NCBI GenBank assembly: GCA_000004985.1
Contig: GG738909.1
DNA length: 64,000 bases
Origin: Naegleria gruberi
Lineage: Eukaryota
Direction: 5' to 3' (one strand)
Under the pieces are notes generated by a model. It did not search any database, was not told the DNA's origin, and saw only the letters and a list, made by a program, of their open reading frames with translations. Positions within the stretch are counted from its first letter, which is position 1. Every line of letters begins with the position of its first letter. The translations under genes were made by a program, and so were the position numbers. Of this stretch, positions 15,986 through 33,960 are shown in pieces.

Positions 15986-18900
15986 ATGACATCTCTCAAT
16001 GTTAATGTGTTTGACGATAGAGGTTCAAACAGTTCTCAAAGTAATTCGAGGGTGCTGCTCTCTCCACCTCAGGGAGCCAACAATTACTTACTAATTCCAA
16101 CCAGTAACTATGCAGGATCATCAGTATGTTCCTCTGACAGACATTCCAAAACTGACATTTCAGGTTCTGAAGTTAATGCGGTAACAAAACTGAAGAACTC
16201 GACTTTGGAGTTTGTACTCTTCATACAAGACAACCAAGTGAAGGAGGGAATCTATGGTTATGTGATAACCTTGTTGATTCACTTGTACATGTTTTGGATT
16301 GGAATTTTTCTACCAAATCTTGGACCAGAAATGATGTACGGAGATTGGGGAACATGGATTTTCTCAGTACTCAACTATGCTATTACTCTCTCATTTGAAA
16401 GGATCCCTTATAAGGGAGGTATTGTATTGGCTTTTATTGGAGTAGGTATTGTATTGGTATTTGTAATTCTATTGATCTGGACAATCTTTGCCTACAAGAC
16501 AACCTCCCAACATTTAAAGAACTCGAGAAGAGCTATTGCCATCTTTTCCAAAGTATTTCCATTCATATCAGTACCTCTCTTGTACTTGATGACATTCTCT
16601 CTTGATTGTAATTATACAGTAAGCTCATCAAATCTGAATAGATTTGAATTCTATTCCCATGAGGTGATCCAATGCCACGATACTAGCAATATTATATTTG
16701 TGGTGGTAATGATCTTGGCCATCCTGTTATTGATTATACTCAATGTATTCTCCATGCTCATTGTACCAAACTGCCATCCTCAAAATATAGCTCCATTTGT
16801 GACCGATAATCCAGTTTTCATGAGCTTGTTAGTTGCCTTCAATCTGTGGCAACTCTTTTTACACTTTATCATTCCAACACAATACTCTTTTATGAGAGCT
16901 ATTGTTCATAGTGTTGGATCTATTATTTTAATTATAATTTTTGCCAAGCTGATTCCATTCATTAGAAGAATTGAGAATAGTATTGTATTTGGTTGCCTGT
17001 TGGCTAGATTAGCTTCGAGTATTGGAGCTATTGTAACTTCTATTGTAAATAACCCATCCCTATCAAAGATACTGCCATCGGTGGATAATACACTTGGTGT
17101 TGGACTTGCAGGTCTAACTATTGGTTTGATTATTATTGGTTTTGTGCTTGGTTTCTCCCTTATGGAATTGTATACGAGATTTATTGTGAGATCTATTAGA
17201 AACTTTGTTCTGGAATGTATTCAATCAGATAATGATGAAACAAATCTAGATTCCAAAGAAACTGAAAAATACATTGAGAAAGAAGCACAAATTATTTATC
17301 AACAGTTGGTTGAGTCAAGAAAATTAAGGCACCTTAGAATATTCTTTAAATTTTCTATGAAATTCAAAGAAAAATATCCAACGGAAAAATCAGAAACGCC
17401 CACACAGCACAATCTACTCGATATTTATATTTGTATTGCTCTGATTAAGGGGTTCTCTTCCAATAACCAATTAGATAATGAGATTATCCTTCTCTCTAGT
17501 ATGATTATTGCAAATTATTTGCCAAACGAGGTCAATTCTACAACATTTGCTCAAGGACTTTTGAAGAAAGCTTTTAAAAGAAGACCATCCACTTACTATA
17601 ATTTATTAATTAGTCTAGCTCAAAAACAAGTAGAAGCAACGGTCTATCAAACCAATCCAGAGAGCAGAAACAATGTTGAAATGGCCAAGCTTATTGGTCA
17701 CTTAGAAAGAAGACAGGATGAATTACGAGCACTTCACAGAGCTTTCTGGAAGGAAATCATGCAAGAAAATATCAATCATGAAAAATGTGAATCTATTATT
17801 GTAAGGATTGGGATATTGTCTCATGAATGTGAAACTAAATTCAAGAATTTAATGCACATTTACAAAAACGACAAGACAGTTCTTCGATGTGTTGCTAAAT
17901 ATGTAGAATCTTTTAAATTCAATAAGGAAGCTGCTCAGGAATTATATTCTGAAGCAACAACAATTGAAGAAGAGGATTCCAAACGAATGAATGCCTCCTC
18001 TAAAAGAAGAATTAAAAAGAACCAAAAGAACAGAGTGCATCCTCAACAAATCAGTCACGCTTTTGAGACGTTATCTTATGGTGATGCTAATCATCATGAG
18101 GTAGAGTCCACTGTTGTAGGAGATTTGAATAACGATTTTGGTGGTGTTGAGAATAATCCAGAATTGAAGAAGGAGCTTCTGTTCAGGAATGCATTGGCCA
18201 TCTCACATAAGAATCATTCACATCTCACAATGTTTTTCATTTTCATTGTGCTATCCTTGCTAATTTTGGTTTCAACATTAGTAATGAGCTTGATGTTTTC
18301 GAATTATGTTACTGAGAGCGTACTTGTTGTGGATACTGCCTGTACACCGATTGCATCTGCTATTCGAATTGTTAGTGGAACAAGAAGTTATCAGAGCTCT
18401 CTATTGTTGTACAGTTCCAATTCATCAGCTTGGCCTTCATTATTGGCAGAATATGGCTACTCGAGCCTTTCTGAATTCAAGAAAGCTCACAAGAAAGAGC
18501 TAAGGGATAATATTGATTACTTAATTCTATTGAAAGAGCTAGCACAAACAGCCAAGTTTACCACTGATATGTACTCTGAATTTCATGAATACTACTATAG
18601 CTTTAATCAACCAAAGGCAAATACTAATGGTTTGGAAAAGATTTACAACTCTACCACAGCTATCAATATTACCATTGCAGATATTACTAATTTGGCTATA
18701 ACCTATTCAGAGCAGATTTACAAATTTGAAGATGAGGATTATCTACATACTTTCAGCAGTTATCCTTTCATGATACTATTCAACAATAGGAATATTATGA
18801 CAGCAGCTTATTCTTCATTCTGTTACAAATTTGTTGAGGAATCCAAGAGCTATACCAAGACGATTTCCAATACTTTTATTATTTACTACTCTTGCTCAAT

Positions 18901-21257
18901 TGTTGTTTATTTTACTTACACTGCTATTTATTTGTGCTTTGCAAGATTGGATTTGTCTTTTTTGAAAAAGCTTATTGTTTTATTGGAAAAGAATGTGTCA
19001 AAGCATGAAGCAGGAAAAATGTATCACAATTTGGGCAAGCTAGTCCAAGATGACAGCTCTGTAAGACCGGCCAAGAACTCTGCTTTATACCCTAGGAATG
19101 TTGTGGTAGGATTGGGAATTGTGACAGCAATCTGTGTTGCACTCTGTGCTGGTTTGTTCCTAGCTCAAACTCTCAGCAATTCTCAATACAGCTTTGAGTC
19201 CTATGTCACCATGAGGGATGCTTTCAATGCATTAGAAAACTCCCAATATATTGCAGAAGCGATAACTGAGGAATTCATTAATTTAAAAATTGCTGACAAA
19301 ACATTTATTAATGGATTGGTTTCATCTAATACTGAGCGTTCTGAATCTATTCAAGCATCAATTAAGAAATTAAGATTCTATTGGAATATGTGCATGTATG
19401 GGTCTAATTATTACCCAGATGAGACTCTTGTGATTGGTCTTTTCGAAAAGACTGATTTGATGATAAAGGGAGAAGCTAATTGTACATTTGAAAAGATGAT
19501 TTCACATAATTGCAGCATTGGTGTTGATAAATTGATCACAACTTACACGACTAAAGCCACACAACTCACAGAAGATATTGATCTCAAATCAACAACATTT
19601 GAATCATTATTTGATGACTATTTGGTAGTTAGTTTTTTCTCTACCTATGTAAGCAATTCATTACTGTCATTTTCAGATGTATTTGCTATGGCTGCCTCTG
19701 TTCCATCAGACAAGTTGGTGATTCCATTTGCCATTCTTGGATTTTTGACTTTGTTTATATTCTCGATTGGTATTTACATGTCAATGGGAAAGTATTTCAA
19801 TTCAGTCCAACAACTGCGTCTTCTTTTCAATTATCTACCTCTAGACTTGATGGACTCAAACGAAAATATTAAGAATTATATTGTACATCATCATCTTCCT
19901 GACTCATTCTCAAACATTTTTAGAAGAAAGAAAGGTTCTTCATCAGAGGGCGACTCAAAAGTTCGAAGCATTTTGAACGCATCTGTAGATGGAGCAGTGA
20001 TGTGCAGTGGAGAGAAGGTTGATATTGAAATATTCAATCCAGCAGCTCAAAAGATATTTGGATATAATCAAACAGAAACGATTGGCAGATCATTGTATCA
20101 ATTATTTGAAAAGAATGAGCAATCGAAAATTAAAAACCTCATTGATGAAATGTTAGTGAATGCAGCAAGAGGTGATTCGAAAGGAGATTCTATTGAATTG
20201 GAATGTATCAGAAAGAATCAAACAAGCTTCCCATCACGTGTCAATATTTTTGCCACTCTTCACAATTCTCAAAGTGTTGTCACTTGTTTCATTAAGGATA
20301 TTACAACAGAGAAGAAGCATAATTCATTATTGACAGAAGAAAAGAAACATTCTGAAGAATTATTATTGAATATTTTACCAAGTGCAGTGGCAAGTAAATT
20401 GAAATCAGGAGAAACTTATATTGCAGAGAAATTCAATGATGTTTCATGTTTTTTTAGTGACATGGTTGGATTTACAAAATTAAGTACTGGAATTCAAGCA
20501 TCTGAATTGGTTCAAATGTTGAATGAAATTGTAATTGGATTTGATGATTTGACAGACAAATATAATTTGGAAAAGATTAAAACGATTGGAGATTCATATT
20601 TTTGTGTGGGTGGATTACATGGATTAAATGCACAATCAGATCATCCTGAAAGAATTTTGAGATTTTCCATTGATACATTTGATGTTTTACAAAGATTTAA
20701 TTCAAAATCAGGAAAACAACCATCTGAACAAATTAATATTCGTGTTGGTATTAATACTGGAAGTGTTATTGCAGGTGTTATTGGGAGGAAGAAATTTGCC
20801 TATGTATGTTTTTAATTTCAACATTTTAACATTTTATTGTGTAAATTGTACATTTTCAATATTTCATATTAATATATTAATTAAATAGGATTTATGGGGA
20901 GATACAATTAATACAGCTTCAAGAATGGAATCTAATTCAATTCCAGGAAGAATTCAAATTTCCAGATCAACCTATGAAAGAGTTTATGATTTGGGTTTCA
21001 CTTTTGAAGAAAGACATTTAAATGTGAAAGGAAAGGGTGAATGTATTGCTTACATGTTGCATGAGAAACATCACACTCCAGCTCTTGTTCCATCCTTCAC
21101 TGACATGTTGAGAACAAGTTTAAACATTTTACAAAAGAAAAATTCTGCAAATCTTGAAACATTGAATGAACCCAAAACACCAACAAGAAACAATGATAAT
21201 ATTACCTTGACAATCAATCAAGAAGCCTACCTATCTCCAAATAATACTTTGGAGTAA
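15986..21257 (+). CDS. Polytopic PAS-domain class III adenylyl cyclase of about 1730 aa. Model is join(15986..20803,20889..21257).
   Basis: A 1609-codon exon encodes a multi-TM N-terminal block, further TM helices and a PAS-like segment. The cyclase core FFSDMVGFTKLS...KIKTIGDSYFCVGGL...GVIGRKKFAY|DLWGDTINTASRMES spans an 85-nt GTATGT...AG intron. Both metal Asp, the specificity Lys and Asp, and the transition-state Asn/Arg are present. Confidence 0.8.
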
Positions 21258-22579: not shown

Positions 22580-24305
22580 TTAATTTCCCACCAAAGAATA
22601 GTTCAATATTTTCAATTTTTTAGAAATATTAGAATTGACTATTTGGGAAATATCCAAATTAGAATGAATCACATTCAATTCAGTTAAAGTATTTCCAAGA
22701 TTGTCCACCAATTTGGATAGATCAGAAATATTCAAGTTTTTAACTCCATTCAGTGAAAGGCTTTGCAATTTTGGAGGAAATTTACAATCAGAAATCGCTG
22801 AAAGATTGCTGAAATTACAAAAATCCATTTTGAGAATTTTCAAATTTCTAAATTGTTGATTCTCAAAGAAATATTCAAAGTCCTCTTCTTTGAGAAGGTA
22901 ATTATTGCTCAAATCTAAATATTCCAAACTTTTAAATCTGTCATCCTTAACTAGATGTTGAAAAATATCGCTTGTCAAGAAACATGATTGTAAATCAATA
23001 AATTTCACATATTTGAAGGGAGTTTTCATAAACAGTTCAAGATTGGGTTTCTTGACCCTAATTCCGCCTTCATTCATAATTCCATTAAATTCACGGCAAA
23101 CTAATCTCATGTTCAGAATGTCATCCAAATCAAAGAATTCTGAAACAGAAAGAATTTCGTCTCGTTTCAAAGGTCTTGCTGTCCAGATAATTTCAATTTC
23201 TGGTTTGGAAAGAATTGCATCCATTAAATTGGTGAATCGAGTGGTTGGAATATTGACTTTCCAATTTGGATCAACTTTATCCAACCATTTGTCCACTTCT
23301 GAAGGTGTTGGAATGAAATTCAGATCGATCATATCAAATGCTGGTCTTCCAACAACTTCATTAAACATTCCAACTAGAGATTCTCTATGGAAACAACAAT
23401 CAACAACAAAGTGCTTGGCAATTTTAGATTCTCGATCCAAATTAAGAAACTTTTCAATGATAAAGTCTTTCACCTCATTTGGATCTGAATCATTTCCCTT
23501 AAAATCCTTAAAGAATGATGAAAGCTTGTATCCTCTCCTAATCTTTTCTCTCAACACTTCAAATTTTGTGAAAATTACATAAAGTCTCTTGATTTCCTTT
23601 CTTTCCAAAACACTCTGAAAAAGTCTATACGAATCGTCAAATCTATTCAAATCCGAAAGTTCATAACACAATTCATTGCACTGAGATAGAGAAATTACAA
23701 AGCAATGTTTACATTCTGAGCTCGTAATTAAATCTTCCCATCTACTTCTCTCACATCTCTGTCCGCCAGTATCGAAACATGTAACTCCACAAACAGTTCT
23801 TTCAACTATTCCAACAGTTTTCATATAGATTCTAGCATAATCCTTTGGTATTAATCTCTGTTTCATATACCTTTCTAATACATTTCTTTGATTGAAATAC
23901 GAAACTGTTTCACTAATTTCTGAAATACAATTTCCTTCAATTTCCTTTTCATGAATACATTTCTGAAATCCAGAATCGTGATACATTAAATAGAAATATT
24001 CATGTATTTCATCATCCAATTTCTTATTAGGTATTCTATTCTTTACCAGTGCAGAATCTTGAACTTTATCAAATGCTTGTCCAAATTTAGTAAAATCATT
24101 CCTGGATGGATTTATATCGGATAGGAATAGTTTAAAACACCAGGGAAGATGATTATATTTTGTGGTGTTGCAACGGGAAATTGTAGGGTTGTTCAATCCA
24201 AGCAAGGTATTAAACAATGTTGCTAAAATATAGAATATTCGAATCCTTTAGAATATTGTAATTTAATTTCTTACTTTTTCCTGATCCACCACTTCCCAAG
24301 AAAAC
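22580..24305 (-). CDS. G-protein alpha-like GTPase domain fused to a C-terminal F-box plus leucine-rich repeats. Model is complement(join(22580..24222,24275..24305)), with the 5' end uncertain.
   Basis: G-alpha motifs: P-loop FLGSGGSGKT (on the upstream exon across a 52-nt intron), switch I ARIYMKTVGIVERTV, and switch II/G3 CFDTGGQRCERSRW. The C-terminal helix region resembles G-alpha. The same ORF continues through an F-box-like EILSVSEFFDLDDILNMRLVCREFNGI into LRRs. A one-codon ATG first exon at 24349-24351 is possible. Confidence 0.55.
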
Positions 24306-24550
24306 CTTTGCAAAATAACTATGATTGTTAAATTGTGATTTTACTTACCATCTTGTCGTGTGATGCAAAATCTTCTCCCTCATTATGTGTTCATTTTTTT
24401 TGTGAAGTTTCGTCCAAGTTCTTAGAATGTTCCAAACTGACCAGTGGTGGCTACCGTCAATTATTAACAATAGTTCCATTGTTGACCTGATGTTTACTTT
24501 ACAAAAATTTCACAATAAATTGACTTGAGAAATTCAACAAATATTTATCC

Positions 24551-26872
24551 TTATTCAATTGTAGTCTTCATGGTGCTTTCCATAAATTTCAAGTAGATTT
24601 GAGTTGTAATCTCAGTCAATTCATCAAATATATCTTCAAAAGTTGGTCTCTCTTTTGGATCAATGTGTGTACATTTCATTCCCAATAAATGAATCTTTTG
24701 AGCTTGTTCTTGAGTGAGGAAATTGAACCTCTCCACCAATTGAACTACTGAAATAAAACTTCCAAAAACATCTGCCATATTGGCAGGTCTATATCCAGAA
24801 ATGAGTGTGTGCATTGTGACTCCAAAACTGAAAATATCCAAAGCTCTAAACACAAACACTGTGTCTTGTTGCTTATTTCTCAATTCTGGTGCCATGTAAT
24901 ATAATGTGCCAGCAGTGGTGCAGGAATAGGTTTCAGGTTTGTCCACTGTGAGAGAAACATCAAAATCTGACAATTTGACATTATCAATAATCTCAACTCC
25001 ATCAATTCTCATCTTTTTCACCAAAATATTATTTGGTTTAATGTCATAATGAATCACATTCTTGGAATGTAAATATTTCATTGTATCTGAAACCTTGACA
25101 AGGGAGAATAATATTTGAACAAGTTCAATAATTGTTGGTTCAGTTATTGAAAATGAAGATAATGAATCATCCATCTTTTCCATGAATAAATGTTCGATTC
25201 CATCTTGATTATAGTGATGTAACAATTTTACAACACCATCATGTTCACAAATTCCATTCATAATTTCAATCTCACTCGTTCCAATATTATTAGAAATTTT
25301 CTCTGCAACAGGAACATTATTCATCAACACTGAATATACAGCTCCATTTGCCCCATTTCCAAGATATGTTCTATTGGCTCTGTTAATGACAGCCCCTTCA
25401 ATGACTGTGGCTCTATTTAAAGTGATAGTTGAAAGAGTTTCTCTTTTCTTCAATCTGCAAGATAAAATATATGACATATTATATGAAAAATATTCTCCAA
25501 GAGACTTGAACTCATCCAATTTCCTATTCAGCATTAAATCAGCTTGTGGAGCCAACATATATTTGAGAATGCTATTATTTGTGATGATTTCTGATTGATT
25601 GTCCACAAGTTTTGGCAAAGTGTAAATGTTAATGAAATATCTGAATGGCTCAATCTCCCCTTCTGACAATAATTCAACCAATGATTCTGCTTCAACACCT
25701 GAACTGAGTAATATTCTGACATCATGGTGATTTCTCTAATTGTAGATGCGAGTTTTTATAAGTATTGGAAATTTTTACAAATAACAAACCTTAATTAGGT
25801 GATGAGCAATTAATAATCTCATAATTTTTGTAAAATTATTAGTTTTGGCAATTTCAAATGGTGTTTCTCCCTTTCTTGGTGTGAATATTGATTTTTTAGC
25901 AAACAAACTTACACACTAATAACCATAAATGGTATTCCAAATAATTTACACTCAAAAACTTACTGACTATTCAAAAAGTTAGTTGGTTATCTTTAATAAA
26001 TACATACACACTGTGAAATGGTTGAGAAATGATCGATTACGAAATCAACTTACATTCTTTTAATTGTTAATGCTTCATTGTGGAAATGAAATTAAACTTA
26101 CATGCTTTAAAATAATTAATTTGAAAAGTAATTGAAATACTTACACACTATAAAAACGTCAGTAAACTCCAATAGATCACTATCAACTTACACACTAATC
26201 AAATTATTCCTCTGCAAAACAACTAATAAGCATACTTACTCCCTAAAATCTCTTATTCGAAACTGTATATGCTAAACTTTACTTACTCCCTAAAACCATT
26301 CAAAATCTCAAATCTACAAATCTACTTACTCCATTCTTATAATCAACCAATGGCATACTCTTCAGTAAATATTTCACAACTTTAACTTGTCCATATTTGC
26401 AAGCAATGTACAACAAAGTTCTCGCTGGAGGATAGTTCTTATTCTTCTCTGGAATTAAAACATCAAGAAGTGATGGTAAATCTTTCATTCGACTCAATTC
26501 TTTCACATTTCCTTGTTTCACCCAATAGGCAGCCAATAATGCATTGTACATTTGTGGAAACAATCGAATAGTTGTTAGTGCTGGACTCCATTGGGATGGC
26601 TGCACCAATAGTTGGAAAATAGGATGAGATGGTTGTCGGAAAGGATAATTGGAAGGAAAAGAAAAAGTGAAAACAAATGGCTCCTCCTTTCAAATTCCAA
26701 TAATTCATTCATCATTGATCAATAAATTGATAAATCTATTCGAAATAAACTCACATCAACAATTTTAAAAGTTACTGTCCATTCCGAAAGTTCATTGTCA
26801 TTCTTAGGTTCGACAGTAAAGCCAGGATGTGTCAGTTGTTTAATATCTCGCAATTCTCTCTGTACTCTCTTC
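24551..26872 (-). CDS. UBC-like (non-catalytic) N-terminal domain, ankyrin repeats and a Ser/Thr protein kinase, about 582 aa. Model is complement(join(24551..25735,25790..25870,26330..26686,26750..26872)).
   Basis: Kinase motifs: LGNGANGAVY, VAEK, HYDIKPNNILV, DFD and YMAPE. Upstream exons encode MLKRVQRELRDI...SEWTVTFKIVD and ...QWSPALTT (an E2-like fold lacking the catalytic Cys) plus ankyrin-like repeats. Introns of 54, 459 and 63 nt have consistent phase. Single-gene linkage is inferred. Confidence 0.5.
25871..26329 (-). repeat. Intronic array of about 9-10 tandem units of roughly 45-50 bp. Each unit begins with a consensus 5' splice site (GTAAGT, read on the minus strand) and ends in AG.
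   Basis: On the plus strand, ACTTAC recurs every 45-50 nt (25908, 25958, 26049, 26098, 26140, 26187, 26234, 26282, 26324). The units are separated by 3-4 nt spacers (GGAG, TGT, TCA, CAT, AAT). Confidence 0.5.
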
Positions 26873-27786
26873 AACATTCTCACAAATTTTTTTTGATTTA
26901 TTTTGTTTGATTGGTGAATATTAATAGAAAGGAAAGAAACTGTATCAATTTTGATCTACCAATTGAACTAGCGAAACACATCTATTTAAACGAAGAGAAT
27001 TGTTAACTTTTCAGCAGCAACAACTTTATATTCAATCAAAAAGCAATAAAAAAAATAAAGAAACACTCGAGCAAAACCAACACGTGAAAGATGTCATTCA
27101 TTCTTTGTGATTAATCTTGTTGGTGGTACAAAACTTTTTGATGAGTTTCTTAATCAAGTTGACAAAGAGAAACATTCTCCAACAGATTTAGTTTCTCTAT
27201 TTGCATTGACTATTAATATTAATGTCAGTACTTTGGTTGATAAGATTCCCTCCATTACTCCAATTGACTTTCAACAGTAACATCACCACTTAATTCAAAC
27301 CTTACCAAATCAAAACAGATTTGTTAGGAATAATGGAGATTTATTGCTAACAGAAATTTTCCTGAAACTAGTGGACCATTACAACGAGAATGATTGGAAT
27401 TGTAGATTGGACCGAATGAATGATTTTTTCGACCAGAAATTGAAAGATCAACATGTCAAGATAGGGTTTTCTTTCGATGAAGCTCACCTATTATTCAAAC
27501 ATGCCCAACAAAAGGTGTAAGTCAATGGCCAACTAAAGGGGGGTCTCTTCCATGCTGTTTATGAACAAAATCGACAATTTAACAATCCTGTTTTTCTTGG
27601 CTCAACATTTAACATATCAGATGCCAATCTTGATGTCAGTCGAGAAGGAAGACAATTGGTTAGACGTGTTATTGGAACTCTTCAACCATGGCTGTTGCCA
27701 GGAGTTAACACAGCATTGACTCACTTGTTTCTGGTTCACCTCAAAACGTAACCATTTTACATAGAGAATTATTACAAAAATCATAT

Positions 27787-31786: not shown

Positions 31787-33321
31787 TTACAATGAATATT
31801 TACAAGGAACAGATTTGCAAATTTGTGCTAATTTAGAAAGTATGGTTGAGCAAAAAATTGGCTCTTCATAATAATCTTCCAATTGTTCTGCCCATTTACT
31901 TGCTTCCTCCTCATTTGTAAATTCAACTTTTTCAGTGCAATATTCAATCAAATCATTTAGTCCATGTTCGTGAGCTTTCTTCATGACGTTTAAGAGATTT
32001 CGATTGGGAATTTCCAAATGTTCCTTTCCGTAAATGTATTCAATAATGAAAAGAGTTTCGTATGGAAAGATTTCACTAGAATTCCAAGTACCATTCTCAC
32101 TTGAGAGAAATGCTTCAAAAAATAAGCTTTTTGACATGAGAATTGTTTTGTGACATTTCACGGTGAATGAAGTGAGGCCATCTTCTGATGTAATTGAAAT
32201 GTCAATGTCAGAATCACATTCTTTGGTGAATAATTCCCATAGTGGATTAGAAATGTCCTCTTTTTCTGTAATATCCAATTCAGTTATTGAGTTATTGGAA
32301 ACTAGAAGATTGTGTAAATTATTCAAATAAATTCCACATTCGAAATTTTCAATATAATACGCAACTTTTTGTTTTGCCTTTTCAGTAAAACCAAAACTTT
32401 CCAAATATCCCAAATTAACACCTTCGAATAAAATTTTCTTCCAATAAGTCAACTCATTCTCATCAGCTTTATCCAATAGAAAGAGTAATGCAAGTTTCCT
32501 CTCCAAAATAATCGACTCCTCCTCATCCAAATCATCAGGCAACACTTCAATACTATCATACATTAGCACATCCACAATAACTTGCAATTCTTCTCTTTCC
32601 AATTTTGACAATTGACTCAACAATTTCTCATTCAGAAAGACATTTTCAAAAAATGTTGGAAACATTACTTTCAATAAGGGAATAAAGGCAGTAATTTGAT
32701 TATTCGAATCATGATTGAACTTTTTCAATGAAATTCCAGATGTATAGTTTAGTATTTCGTAATGTTTTCTTTCGGATAGTTCATCATCATGAGGATCGAA
32801 ACTAGGATGCAGAGAAATGAGTTTGATGATCAATGGATTGTCGGCTATTCCAATTGGATACAAATAATCCCACTATTGATTATTGAGCTTCTTTGAAAGA
32901 ATCGAATACTTACTGTGTACTATTAATTGATGATAAATATTATTCGAAACAAAAACTTACTGGCTAATATCATGTTTTCCAATTTCCGATTTTTTAAAAT
33001 TTACTTACAACTACAACCTAGATTACAATTTACCAATTAATTAAATTTTCACAATTAAAATTATTCGAAACTTACACCAACATTAACATTCACATTCGGA
33101 ACACTTGCCAAAACTTTTGCCATTTCAAAATCATCCGAAACACAAGCATGCATAAATAATGGACAATAGGAAAAGTATGAATTTTCACAGGTGAAGGAAC
33201 GAATTTCTTTGTTAATTATTTCTTTGGAAAGTTTAGTTTTGAGCCATCTGAGTCCTTCTACATTCTTCTCACTAATAAAATTGACGCCTTTTAGTAAAAT
33301 CTCATCAAAGTTTGTTGACAT
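31787..33321 (-). CDS. Ankyrin-repeat / BTB(POZ)-domain protein. Model is complement(join(31787..32872,33076..33321)).
   Basis: Ankyrin-like first exon (MSTNFDEILLKGVNF...LFMHACVSDDFEMAKVL). The BTB-like region is FTVKCHKTILMSKSLFFEAFLSS. The intervening 203 nt carries a GTAAGT-repeat array, which is assumed to be one intron. Phase 0 at both junctions. Confidence 0.5.
32873..33075 (-). repeat. Second intronic array of tandem splice-donor-like units (4 x GTAAGT...AG of about 40-50 nt)
   Basis: On the plus strand, ACTTAC occurs at ~32910, 32958, 33010 and 33070. The units share the TTCGAATAA motif with the 25871-26329 array. Confidence 0.4.
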
Positions 33322-33552: not shown

Positions 33553-33960
33553 TTAACACCATCTAACACCTCCAACACAACCCAATCCACCACCATAACC
33601 AAAACCACCACCGTATCCAAAACCACCTCCATAACCACCATAAAATGGAATTCCATATCCTCCGTATCCACCATAGAATGGCATTGAATAAGCACTTCCA
33701 TAATTAGTTCCATAACTACTTGGTCCAGTATATGAAGATCCATAACTTGAGTATGGTTGTGAATTGACTGCATTCACTTGATTCAAATAGGATTGAGAAT
33801 TTTGTCCATATTGATTGTAATTTCCTCCAGTGACTCCATAGTTAGAACCAGCGCCTCCTGATGTACCATAATTAGTACCGTAATTGTTGCTATATTGACA
33901 GTTGACCAAGCAAGAAGCCAAAAGTAAGGTTGCCACGAGAGCAATGATGAATTTGTTCAT
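33553..33960 (-). CDS. Secreted Gly/Tyr/Ser-rich low-complexity protein (135 aa)
   Basis: Signal peptide MNKFIIALVATLLLASCLVNC followed by (GYGG)n/(SYG)n-type repeats. Confidence 0.5.
   Translation of the reverse strand: MNKFIIALVATLLLASCLVNCQYSNNYGTNYGTSGGAGSNYGVTGGNYNQYGQNSQSYLNQVNAVNSQPYSSYGSSYTGPSSYGTNYGSAYSMPFYGGYGGYGIPFYGGYGGGFGYGGGFGYGGGLGCVGGVRWC

What the first reader, a model, noticed from the sequence alone, without database searches (positions are those of the whole stretch)
24551..26872. One gene appears to combine a Cys-less UBC-like fold, ankyrin repeats and an active-looking protein kinase
In-phase splicing links MLKRVQRELRDI...SEWTVTFKIVD / ...YPFRQPSHPIFQLLVQPSQWSPALTT to ankyrin repeats and a kinase (VAEK, HYDIKPNN, DFD, APE). 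The UBC-like part has an E2/UEV-like fold signature but lacks about 14 aa including the catalytic Cys. A UEV-ankyrin-kinase combination is unusual.
Basis: inference. Interest (0 to 1): 0.55.

Follow-up and report, generated by a model that had tools for sequence, protein, structure and literature searches.

The report
Dead E2 head on ankyrin-kinase gene
In the amoeba Naegleria gruberi, one gene very likely joins a decayed, cysteine-less piece of a ubiquitin-conjugating enzyme to ankyrin repeats and an intact-looking protein kinase; the combination is a one-off curiosity, and the oddest part is a run of ten tiny introns separated by 3-base exons inside the gene.

Summary
On the minus strand, 26877-24551 reads as one in-phase gene of 581 aa (590 with microexons). 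Residues 1-95 are homologous to UBC4/5-type E2 enzymes. They lack 5 aa plus 14 aa, including the catalytic Cys, and lack helices 3-4. Two to three ankyrin repeats, a linker and a complete kinase domain (VAEK, HYD, DFD, APE) follow.

The window is Naegleria gruberi. The public model of this locus (D2VY37, 474 aa) already joins ankyrin and kinase. It starts at Met87, so it omits the E2-like head.

Evidence that the head is coding:
- E2 homology continues across intron 1 in phase.
- The same open exon runs from the head into the ankyrin repeat.
- Codon usage looks coding.
- The first ATG matches the E2 N-terminus.

No transcript evidence was available. The head is a truncated relic, and its fold is unproven. 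No other protein with this head was found among 1.8 billion representatives.

It is ten complete 40-48 nt introns separated by nine 3-nt exons. A second such run lies 6.5 kb away. I found no description of such runs.

Main finding: moderate interest, a new variant of known kinds.

The parts
26755..26877 (-). Exon 1. ATG at 26877-26875. Residues 1-41 correspond to E2 helix 1 and strands 1-2.
   Evidence: UQ_con profile positions 1-35 score 17.6 bits for this exon alone. MLKRVQREL aligns with the E2 N-terminus LKRIQKEL. Codon score is 0.27, against 0.29 +/- 0.14 for in-frame genes. An A-rich leader lies upstream.
26687..26754 (-). Intron 1: 68 nt, GTGAGT...AAAG, phase 0. It sits at the site of the 5-aa E2 gap.
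   Evidence: Retention gives a stop (ORF 26719-26883). Removing it joins UQ_con positions 1-35 to 47-63 in frame, and the score rises to 30.2 bits. It contains TTTCGAATA.
26525..26686 (-). Exon 2, E2-like part (residues 42-95): strand 3, YPFRQP loop, deletion site, QWSPALT and helix 2. The annotated start Met87 (ATG 26551-26549) lies inside it.
   Evidence: Codon score is 0.20. The public protein P0043 begins MYNALL.
26594..26629 (-). Residues 61-72 (SHPIFQLLVQPS). This is the place where 14 E2 residues, including the catalytic Cys, are missing; HPN is degenerate.
   Evidence: Two alignments score almost equally, with gaps of 8+6 or a single gap of 14. The Cys falls in a gap in both, and in two of the three HMMER alignments printed; in the third it pairs with Gln.
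26330..26524 (-). Exon 2, ankyrin part (residues 96-160), ending ...DYKNG. It is continuous with the E2-like part.
   Evidence: Ank_3 and Ank hits at residues 130-150; Ank_2 at 113-183. There is no stop between the two parts.
25871..26329 (-). Run of ten mini-introns (40-48 nt; nine GTAAGT and one GTATGT, each ending AG) separated by nine 3-nt exons: GGA GGA TGT TGT CAT AAT TGT TCA TGT (GGCCHNCSC).
   Evidence: It is not a tandem repeat and the introns show no mutual similarity. GC content is 27%, like other introns. The downstream half is conserved in an independent metagenome contig. Six of the nine microexons are threaded by the public model.
25790..25870 (-). Exon 3 (residues 161-187, GETPFEIAKTNNFTKIMRLLIAHHLIK): the second ankyrin repeat. 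The public model skips it.
   Evidence: Ank_2 scores 40.6 bits with this exon and 23.8 without it. In whole proteins the scores are 36.6 versus 26.0. Codon score is 0.32.
25736..25789 (-). Last intron: 54 nt, GTTTGT...TAG, phase 0.
   Evidence: An in-frame TAA appears if it is retained. It is conserved in L001.
24551..25735 (-). Exon 4: end of the ankyrin region, a linker of about 120 aa, the kinase domain and stop TAA (24553-24551).
   Evidence: Continuous ORF. It is intact in strain contig L001, with substitutions only.
24617..25366 (-). Protein kinase domain (residues 311-560): Gly loop LGNGANGAV, VAEK, helix-C Glu, HYDIKPNN, DFD, APE, DPKERP.
   Evidence: Pkinase 112 bits and PK_Tyr_Ser-Thr 91 bits. 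The HYD/DFD variants are shared with paralogue P0002.

Best explanation
This is one lineage-specific Naegleria gruberi gene, at the locus of NAEGRDRAFT_73958 (D2VY37). Its full product is about 581-590 aa.

The first ~95 residues are a relic of a UBC4/5-type ubiquitin-conjugating enzyme. It probably came from a fusion of the 5' part of an E2 gene, start codon included, to an ankyrin-kinase gene. The relic cannot carry ubiquitin: it has no cysteine, the active-site loop is deleted and HPN is degenerate. It has also lost helices 3-4, and E2 helix 2 runs straight into the ankyrin repeats.

The kinase is the working enzyme. All catalytic residues are present. It is a non-RD (HYD) kinase with a DFD variant that a paralogue also carries.

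Inferred, not shown: the ankyrin repeats and the E2 relic act as targeting or regulatory modules. The relic keeps the residues that real E2s use to contact E1 and E3 enzymes: helix-1 K3/R4/R7, F57-R58 in YPFRQP, and S75-P76-A77. It may therefore dock the kinase onto RING, U-box or HECT ligases as a decoy E2. Equally, it may be a tolerated N-terminal fossil.

To make the full-length mRNA, the spliceosome must clear a run of ten mini-introns. This probably leaves some or all of nine single-codon exons in an ankyrin loop.
For: Source organism: three window ORFs are exact N. gruberi proteins.

E2 homology:
- UQ_con 30.2 bits, above the cut-off of 27.
- PDB E2 chains at E = 6.9e-6, aligned over residues 2-83.
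- Best hit among 1.84e9 representatives is an E2, E = 2.9e-6.

The head belongs to the gene:
- Exon 1 alone scores 17.6 bits and the exon 2 head alone 9.6 bits, on consecutive profile positions. Joined they score 30.2.
- The head and the ankyrin repeat share one open exon.
- The three gaps against E2s are all in frame.
- Codon-usage scores of all exons are 0.20-0.32, against 0.29 +/- 0.14 for real genes and -0.75 off frame.
- About 86 codons upstream of Met87 are open in a 33% GC genome.
- The ATG at 26877 aligns with the E2 N-terminus and has an A-rich leader like neighbouring starts; Met87 does not.

Ankyrin to kinase link:
- Ank_2 scores 40.6 bits spliced and 23.8 unspliced.
- The public model P0043 joins exon 2 to exon 4.

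Kinase: 112 bits with all motifs present. The paralogue P0002 shares HYD and DFD.
Against: - No transcript, EST or peptide evidence could be reached.
- The public model starts at Met87 and omits the head.
- The head is an orphan: no second protein shows this deleted variant or this architecture.
- Its fold is unverified. AlphaFold gives pLDDT 50-56 overall and is good only for residues 1-55. That model used an E2 alignment, so it is not independent.
- Comparison with a 98% identical strain gives 12 non-synonymous and 6 synonymous changes in exons 3-4. I estimate dN/dS at about 0.6, which is too few changes to show constraint. The strain contig does not reach the head.
- The apparent retention of E3-contact residues is partly a detection bias, because those are the most conserved E2 motifs.
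Confidence: 0.62

Rival explanations
1. The public annotation is right about the start. The protein begins at Met87 and is an ordinary ankyrin-kinase. The E2-like sequence upstream is an untranslated relic, either 5' UTR with a short upstream ORF or the remains of a neighbouring E2 pseudogene.
For: The public model P0043 starts at MYNALL. The head has no relatives carrying the same deletions. Its fold prediction is weak beyond residue 55. No constraint is measurable.
Against: - The head is strongly diverged from all E2s (27-45% identity), yet has kept about 86 codons open with only in-frame gaps.
- Its codon usage is coding-like.
- Its ATG coincides with the E2 N-terminus and has a typical A-rich leader.
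- If transcription starts upstream, 26877 is the first AUG and is in frame after splicing.
- The model IDs run consecutively along the scaffold, which looks like an ab initio set that simply took the first ATG of the exon-2 ORF (inference).
Confidence: 0.25
2. There are two products. The mini-intron run is mostly not cleared, so the upstream part gives a 170-aa protein of E2 relic plus ankyrin, ending ...DYKNGVSRFVDLRF*. The kinase is made separately from Met247 (MLAPQ...).
For: Retaining nine of the ten mini-introns gives a stop or a frameshift. Ten consecutive splicing events are demanding. Prokaryote-style gene calling on the strain contig starts the kinase at MLAPQ.
Against: An ankyrin repeat is split by the run and continues in phase in exon 3. 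The 59 codons of exon 4 upstream of MLAPQ are open and coding-like. All microexons are multiples of 3. The public model spans the run.
Confidence: 0.08
3. The whole locus is a decaying pseudogene of the expanded N. gruberi kinase family.
For: I estimate dN/dS at about 0.6 from 12 non-synonymous and 6 synonymous changes. No orthologue was found in other species; the nearest relative is a 41% identical paralogue.
Against: The 1746-nt reading frame across four exons is intact. All kinase catalytic residues are present. A second strain has no frameshift or stop. All splice signals are intact.
Confidence: 0.05

Closest known systems
N. gruberi predicted protein D2VY37 / XP_002671040.1 (NAEGRDRAFT_73958), the public model of this locus
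   Same: Same locus. The ankyrin exon 2 (from Met87) and the kinase exon 4 are identical. It also crosses the mini-intron run.
   Different: It is 474 aa. It lacks residues 1-86, the E2-like head. It uses six of the nine 3-nt exons (GCHNSC) and skips exon 3, which lowers Ank_2 to 26.0 bits, below the cut-off.
UBC4/5 (UBE2D) class ubiquitin-conjugating enzymes
   Same: They are the best sequence matches. Shared features are helix 1, strands 1-3, the YPF(K/R)xP loop, QWSPALT and helix 2. Identity to UBE2D2 is 30/77.
   Different: The head has no catalytic Cys, HPN is degenerate, 5+14 residues are missing, and helices 3-4 are absent and replaced by ankyrin repeats. It cannot form a thioester.
UEV proteins (Mms2/UEV1A, TSG101): inactive E2 variants
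   Same: They are cysteine-less E2-derived modules used for binding rather than catalysis. UEVs also lack the C-terminal E2 helices (my own knowledge).
   Different: No Pfam UEV hit was found. UEVs keep a complete four-stranded core, whereas here the active-site segment is deleted. UEVs are not fused to kinases.
GCN2 (RWD domain plus kinase)
   Same: This is the known precedent for a non-catalytic UBC-like (RWD) fold at the N-terminus of a protein kinase (my own knowledge).
   Different: The RWD profile scores only 12-14.6 bits against a cut-off of 22.8. There is no pseudokinase or HisRS-like region. The kinase is not GCN2-like; the best PDB matches are CDPK, ASK1 and RIPK1 at 50-62 bits.
Ankyrin-kinase proteins: N. 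gruberi paralogue P0002; ILK, TNNI3K, plant STY/HT1-type TKLs
   Same: N-terminal ankyrin repeats are followed by a kinase. P0002 is 41% identical in the kinase domain and shares HYD and DFD.
   Different: None of them has an E2-derived head. P0002 has an unrelated N-terminus.

Membership tests
Ubiquitin-conjugating enzyme (Pfam UQ_con, PF00179) | Profile match at or above the curated cut-off (27 bits) | tested here: met
   30.2 bits for residues 1-118 alone. The score is 26.0 bits within the full protein, so the match is marginal. It covers only profile positions 1-63 of 140.
Ubiquitin-conjugating enzyme (Pfam UQ_con, PF00179) | Catalytic cysteine downstream of HPN | tested here: not met
   There is no Cys in residues 1-136. 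The Cys falls in a 14-residue gap in the pairwise alignments and in two of the three printed HMMER alignments. HPN is replaced by HPI or QPS.
Ubiquitin-conjugating enzyme (Pfam UQ_con, PF00179) | Complete core fold: helix 1, four strands, helices 2-4 | tested here: not met
   E2 homology ends at about residue 95 (helix 2), and ankyrin repeats follow. AlphaFold is confident only for helix 1 and three strands. Foldseek aligns about 60 residues at 3.1 A with E >= 0.03.
UEV (inactive E2 variant) | Folded E2-like domain lacking the Cys, recognised by the UEV profile | tested here: inconclusive
   The Cys is absent, so that part is met. No Pfam UEV hit appeared at E <= 10. The fold is not established.
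UEV (inactive E2 variant) | Binds ubiquitin or a partner E2/E3 | not testable with these tools
   This needs binding assays. The residues matching E2 E3-contact positions (K3/R4/R7, F57/R58, S75-P76-A77) are present, but that is only a lead.
RWD domain | Profile match at the curated cut-off (22.8 bits) | tested here: not met
   12.0-14.6 bits.
Ankyrin repeat | Profile match at the curated cut-off | tested here: met
   Ank_2 scores 36.6-40.6 bits (cut-off 27.3), Ank_3 28.6-34, and Ank 25.8-30.6.
Eukaryotic protein kinase (Pkinase, PF00069), active type | Profile match plus catalytic residues: strand-3 Lys, helix-C Glu, catalytic Asp and Asn, metal-binding Asp, APE | tested here: met
   112 bits over profile positions 6-259 of 263. 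Residues K333, E in SEIEIM, D418, N423, D444 and APE 469-471 are present.
Eukaryotic protein kinase (Pkinase, PF00069), active type | Canonical HRD and DFG triplets | tested here: not met
   The triplets are HYD and DFD. Both are shared with paralogue P0002, so this is a family trait. Activity itself cannot be tested here.

The most novel reading that the evidence does not exclude
The 459 nt between the two ankyrin exons (26329-25871) is a new kind of gene structure. It holds ten complete spliceosomal introns of 40-48 nt, removed one after another, and separated by nine single-codon exons. All exons are in phase 0. Any subset of them could therefore be kept, giving 0-9 extra residues (GGCCHNCSC) in an ankyrin loop. 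Alternatively, the run could act as a splicing gate in front of the kinase. A second run, with exons of 9, 3 and 6 nt, in a nearby ankyrin-BTB gene suggests a genome-wide phenomenon in Naegleria, produced by some process that multiplies introns.
Probability: 0.4. Interest if true: 0.7.

Novelty: new variant of a known kind. Interest (0 to 1): 0.42.

Why it matters
If the head is translated, this would be an E2-derived, catalytically dead module recruited to a protein kinase. Apart from the RWD domain of GCN2, I know of no precedent. It would be a natural test of whether a pseudo-E2 can tether a kinase to ubiquitin ligases.

It also corrects a public gene model. D2VY37 lacks 86 N-terminal residues and an ankyrin exon.

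The run of single-codon exons matters more. Single 3-nt exons are known in animals. A chain of nine, found twice in 64 kb, would challenge ideas about the minimum exon size and about how introns multiply. It would also explain why gene finders struggle at such loci.

Tried and rejected
- Word-indexed search with residues 1-247 found nothing at E <= 10.
- A metagenome scan for relatives of the kinase ORF found only distant kinases, 24-30% identical.
- Contig look-ups for N. gruberi proteins P0002 and P0031 returned nothing, so the annotated exon structure and paralogue introns could not be read.
- Exact look-ups of my 581-aa and 590-aa models were not in the collection. No transcript-derived protein of this gene exists there; the cluster of P0001 holds only P0001 and D2VY37.
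- Single-sequence AlphaFold of residues 1-231 was uninformative, with pLDDT 50. A 5-sequence alignment gave only a partial, non-independent model.
- dN/dS against strain contig L001 rested on too few changes.
- The mini-intron run as a tandem repeat: rejected. TRF finds only a 23-nt array of an 8-nt unit, and the introns are not similar to each other, mean z = 0.4.
- The mini-introns as hairpins, mirtrons or a known RNA family: rejected. Folding z-scores are near 0 and Rfam finds nothing.
- Literature searches for Naegleria microexons, runs of 3-nt exons, or UEV-ankyrin-kinase proteins found nothing relevant.
Full report
**Source of the window.** GC content is 33.5%. Three of its intron-less ORFs are exact matches to Naegleria gruberi proteins EFC38297, EFC38303 and EFC38263, all on one 250-kb scaffold. 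The neighbourhood fits this organism. It holds a PAS-cyclase gene, LRR proteins, a BTB protein, and a G-alpha gene fused to an F-box and LRRs.

**The observation.** I rebuilt the gene as follows:
- exon 1, 26877-26755
- intron 1, 68 nt
- exon 2, 26686-26330
- a 459-nt interval, 26329-25871
- exon 3, 25870-25790
- a 54-nt intron
- exon 4, 25735-24551

All junctions are in phase and the product is 581 aa. Pfam finds Pkinase at 112 bits, Ank_2 at 36.6 bits and UQ_con at 26.0 bits in the full protein. UQ_con scores 30.2 bits, above its cut-off of 27, on residues 1-118 alone.

**The E2-like head is truly E2-derived.**
- phmmer against PDB returns 118 E2 chains, best E = 6.9e-6. Most are UBC4/5 (UBE2D) type, aligned over residues 2-83.
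- A filter-free HMMER scan of 1.84 billion representative proteins with residues 1-110 returns six hits at E <= 1e-3. Five are E2-type proteins (best 43.6 bits, E = 2.9e-6); the sixth, P0038, is an unrelated repeat protein. None has ankyrin or kinase parts.
- There is a 5-residue gap at YQGGV. A further 14 residues are missing between the YPFRQP loop and QWSPALT. Alignments with gaps of 8+6 or a single gap of 14 score almost the same. The catalytic Cys lies in the gap in both, and in two of the three HMMER alignments printed; in the third it pairs with Gln.
- The first cysteine of the protein is residue 137.
- E2 homology ends in helix 2, at about residue 95. Helices 3-4 are replaced by ankyrin repeats.

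'Fold' is not shown. AlphaFold without an alignment gives pLDDT 50. With four E2 sequences added, only residues 1-55 (helix 1 and three strands) reach pLDDT 72-81. Foldseek then finds E2s only, but at E >= 0.03 and over about 60 residues. That model is biased by its own alignment. No UEV profile hit appeared, and RWD is below its cut-off.

**Is it one gene? Head to ankyrin.** This link does not depend on a splice. The E2-like part and the strongest ankyrin repeat lie in the same open exon 2. Exon 1 alone matches UQ_con positions 1-35 (17.6 bits). The exon 2 head alone matches positions 47-63 (9.6 bits). Joined, they score 30.2 bits. So intron 1 links consecutive parts of one domain in phase.

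**Ankyrin to kinase.**
- The repeat interrupted after ...DYKNG continues in exon 3 (GETPFEIAK...). The Ank_2 score is 40.6 bits for the spliced sequence and 23.8 for the unspliced one.
- Exon 4 is open for 59 codons upstream of its first Met.
- All exons have codon-usage scores of 0.20-0.32 in the proposed frame. Real genes of the window score 0.29 +/- 0.14, and off-frame sequence scores -0.75.

**The locus is already annotated.** P0001, a metagenome protein 97% identical to the kinase, shares its cluster with D2VY37 / XP_002671040.1 (NAEGRDRAFT_73958), which is 474 aa.
- That model also joins exon 2 to exon 4.
- It starts at Met87 (ATG 26551), the first ATG of the exon 2 ORF, so it omits the E2-like head.
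- It skips exon 3, which drops Ank_2 to 26.0 bits, below the cut-off.
- Model IDs run consecutively along the scaffold (73958, 73960, 73972). From that I infer an ab initio model set, so I do not count it as transcript evidence.

**Evidence that the head is translated.**
- About 86 codons upstream of Met87 are open in an AT-rich genome, although the head has diverged to 27-45% identity from any E2.
- All three gaps are in frame.
- The ATG at 26877 aligns with the E2 N-terminus.
- Its leader is A-rich like other starts in the window; the sequence before Met87 is not.

**Evidence against.** No transcript data could be reached. The only comparative sequence is a 98% identical strain from metagenome ERZ929261. 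It does not reach the head, and it gives 12 non-synonymous against 6 synonymous changes in exons 3-4, which is uninformative.

**The kinase.** Gly loop, VAEK lysine, helix-C glutamate, HYDIKPNN, DFD, APE and the subdomain XI arginine are all present. HRD is HYD and DFG is DFD. The N. gruberi paralogue P0002 has ankyrin plus kinase and is 41% identical in the kinase domain. It has the same two variants, so they are a family trait. The domain belongs to no well-defined family. The best solved structures are CDPK, ASK1 and RIPK1 at 50-62 bits. No orthologue turned up in other species.

**Likely working.**
- Shown: a dead E2 relic, 2-3 ankyrin repeats and a catalytically complete kinase lie in one reading frame.
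- Inferred: the gene arose by fusion of the 5' part of a UBC4/5-type gene to an ankyrin-kinase gene. The kinase is the effector, and the N-terminal modules target or regulate it.
- Speculative: the relic keeps residues matching the E1/E3 contact sites of UbcH5-type E2s. These are K3/R4/R7 in helix 1, F57-R58, and S75-P76-A77 (the assignment of contacts is from my own knowledge). It could therefore act as a decoy E2 that docks on RING, U-box or HECT ligases.

These are also the motifs that make the homology detectable, so I give the decoy idea about 0.2. The downstream neighbour fuses G-alpha to an F-box. This shows that the genome readily joins signalling domains to ubiquitin-system modules.

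The 459-nt interval between exons 2 and 3 is not a plain intron. It consists of ten units, nine beginning GTAAGT and one GTATGT, each ending AG and 40-48 nt long. Most have a plausible branch site. They are separated by exactly 3 nt each: GGA GGA TGT TGT CAT AAT TGT TCA TGT.
- It is not a tandem repeat, and the units are not similar to one another.
- The units do not fold into hairpins and match no Rfam family.
- Their composition is intron-like, 27% GC.
- The downstream half is conserved in the independent strain contig.
- Retaining any unit except the last gives a stop or a frameshift.

A second run of four units, with exons of 9, 3 and 6 nt, lies at 33075-32873 in an ankyrin-BTB gene. No N. 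gruberi protein was found for that gene. The strain contig conserves this run too, and its only microexon change is synonymous, GTT to GTC. A systematic scan finds only these two chains in the window, of lengths 10 and 4. Shuffled sequence never gives more than 3.

All twelve small exons are multiples of 3. This argues that at least some are kept in mRNA under selection for the reading frame. The public model in fact threads six of them (GCHNSC). Whether they are kept constitutively, in combinations, or skipped altogether needs RNA data. Single 3-nt exons are known in animals. I found no report of such chains.

**Verdict.** The architecture is real at the DNA level and is unique in the databases searched. 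Expression of the head and its fold remain unproven. It is a new variant built from known parts, of moderate interest. The microexon run inside it deserves its own follow-up.

Noticed in passing
window 25871-26329 (-): A run of ten complete mini-introns (40-48 nt) separated by nine 3-nt exons (GGA GGA TGT TGT CAT AAT TGT TCA TGT), inside an ankyrin loop of the gene under study. It is not a tandem repeat, the units are not similar to each other, and part of it is conserved in a second strain. The public model D2VY37 threads six of the microexons.
   Followed up: partly
window 32873-33075 (-); gene about 31787-33321 (-): A second run of four short introns, with exons of 9, 3 and 6 nt (VVV, P, YT). 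It follows a weak ankyrin-like repeat in a gene that ends in a BTB domain. No N. gruberi protein for this gene was found; only a 94% identical metagenome fragment turned up. The run is conserved in contig L013, with one synonymous microexon change.
   Followed up: partly
window 26737, 26254, 33062, 32941 (-), 22361 (+), and 4 other sites: The near-palindromic motif TTTCGAATA occurs 9 times, against about 1 expected (0 of 100 shuffles reach 9). Five of the nine lie inside short introns. Three of those are within 15 nt of the 5' splice site, and two directly follow GTAAG. This may be an intron-family signature or a regulatory site.
   Followed up: partly
window 22580-24383 (-): The downstream neighbour fuses a G-protein alpha domain (120 bits) to an F-box (22 bits, cut-off 20.5) and leucine-rich repeats. 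This is another fusion of a signalling domain with a ubiquitin-system module. It has two short introns of about 43 and 52 nt near its 5' end.
   Followed up: partly
window 25790-25870 and 26551 (-): The public model D2VY37 (474 aa) probably mis-annotates the gene. It starts at an internal Met and skips an 81-nt exon that completes an ankyrin repeat (Ank_2 26.0 versus 36.6 bits).
   Followed up: yes
window 33556-33960 (-): A small ORF with a signal-peptide-like start (MNKFIIALVATLLLASCLV...) followed by a Gly/Tyr-rich low-complexity sequence (YGGYGGYG..., GFGYGGG...). It may be a secreted or wall-type protein.
   Followed up: no
L001, L002, L013 (ENA ERZ929261 / run ERR1078381): A public metagenome contains a Naegleria gruberi-like strain about 98% identical in DNA to this window, introns included. 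The intergenic stretch 24384-24550 is more diverged (6%) than exons and introns (1.2-1.9%).
   Followed up: partly
window 15986-20815 (+): A 1609-codon ORF with TPR, PAS and an adenylate/guanylate cyclase catalytic domain that runs to the ORF end. The gene probably continues beyond an intron.
   Followed up: no
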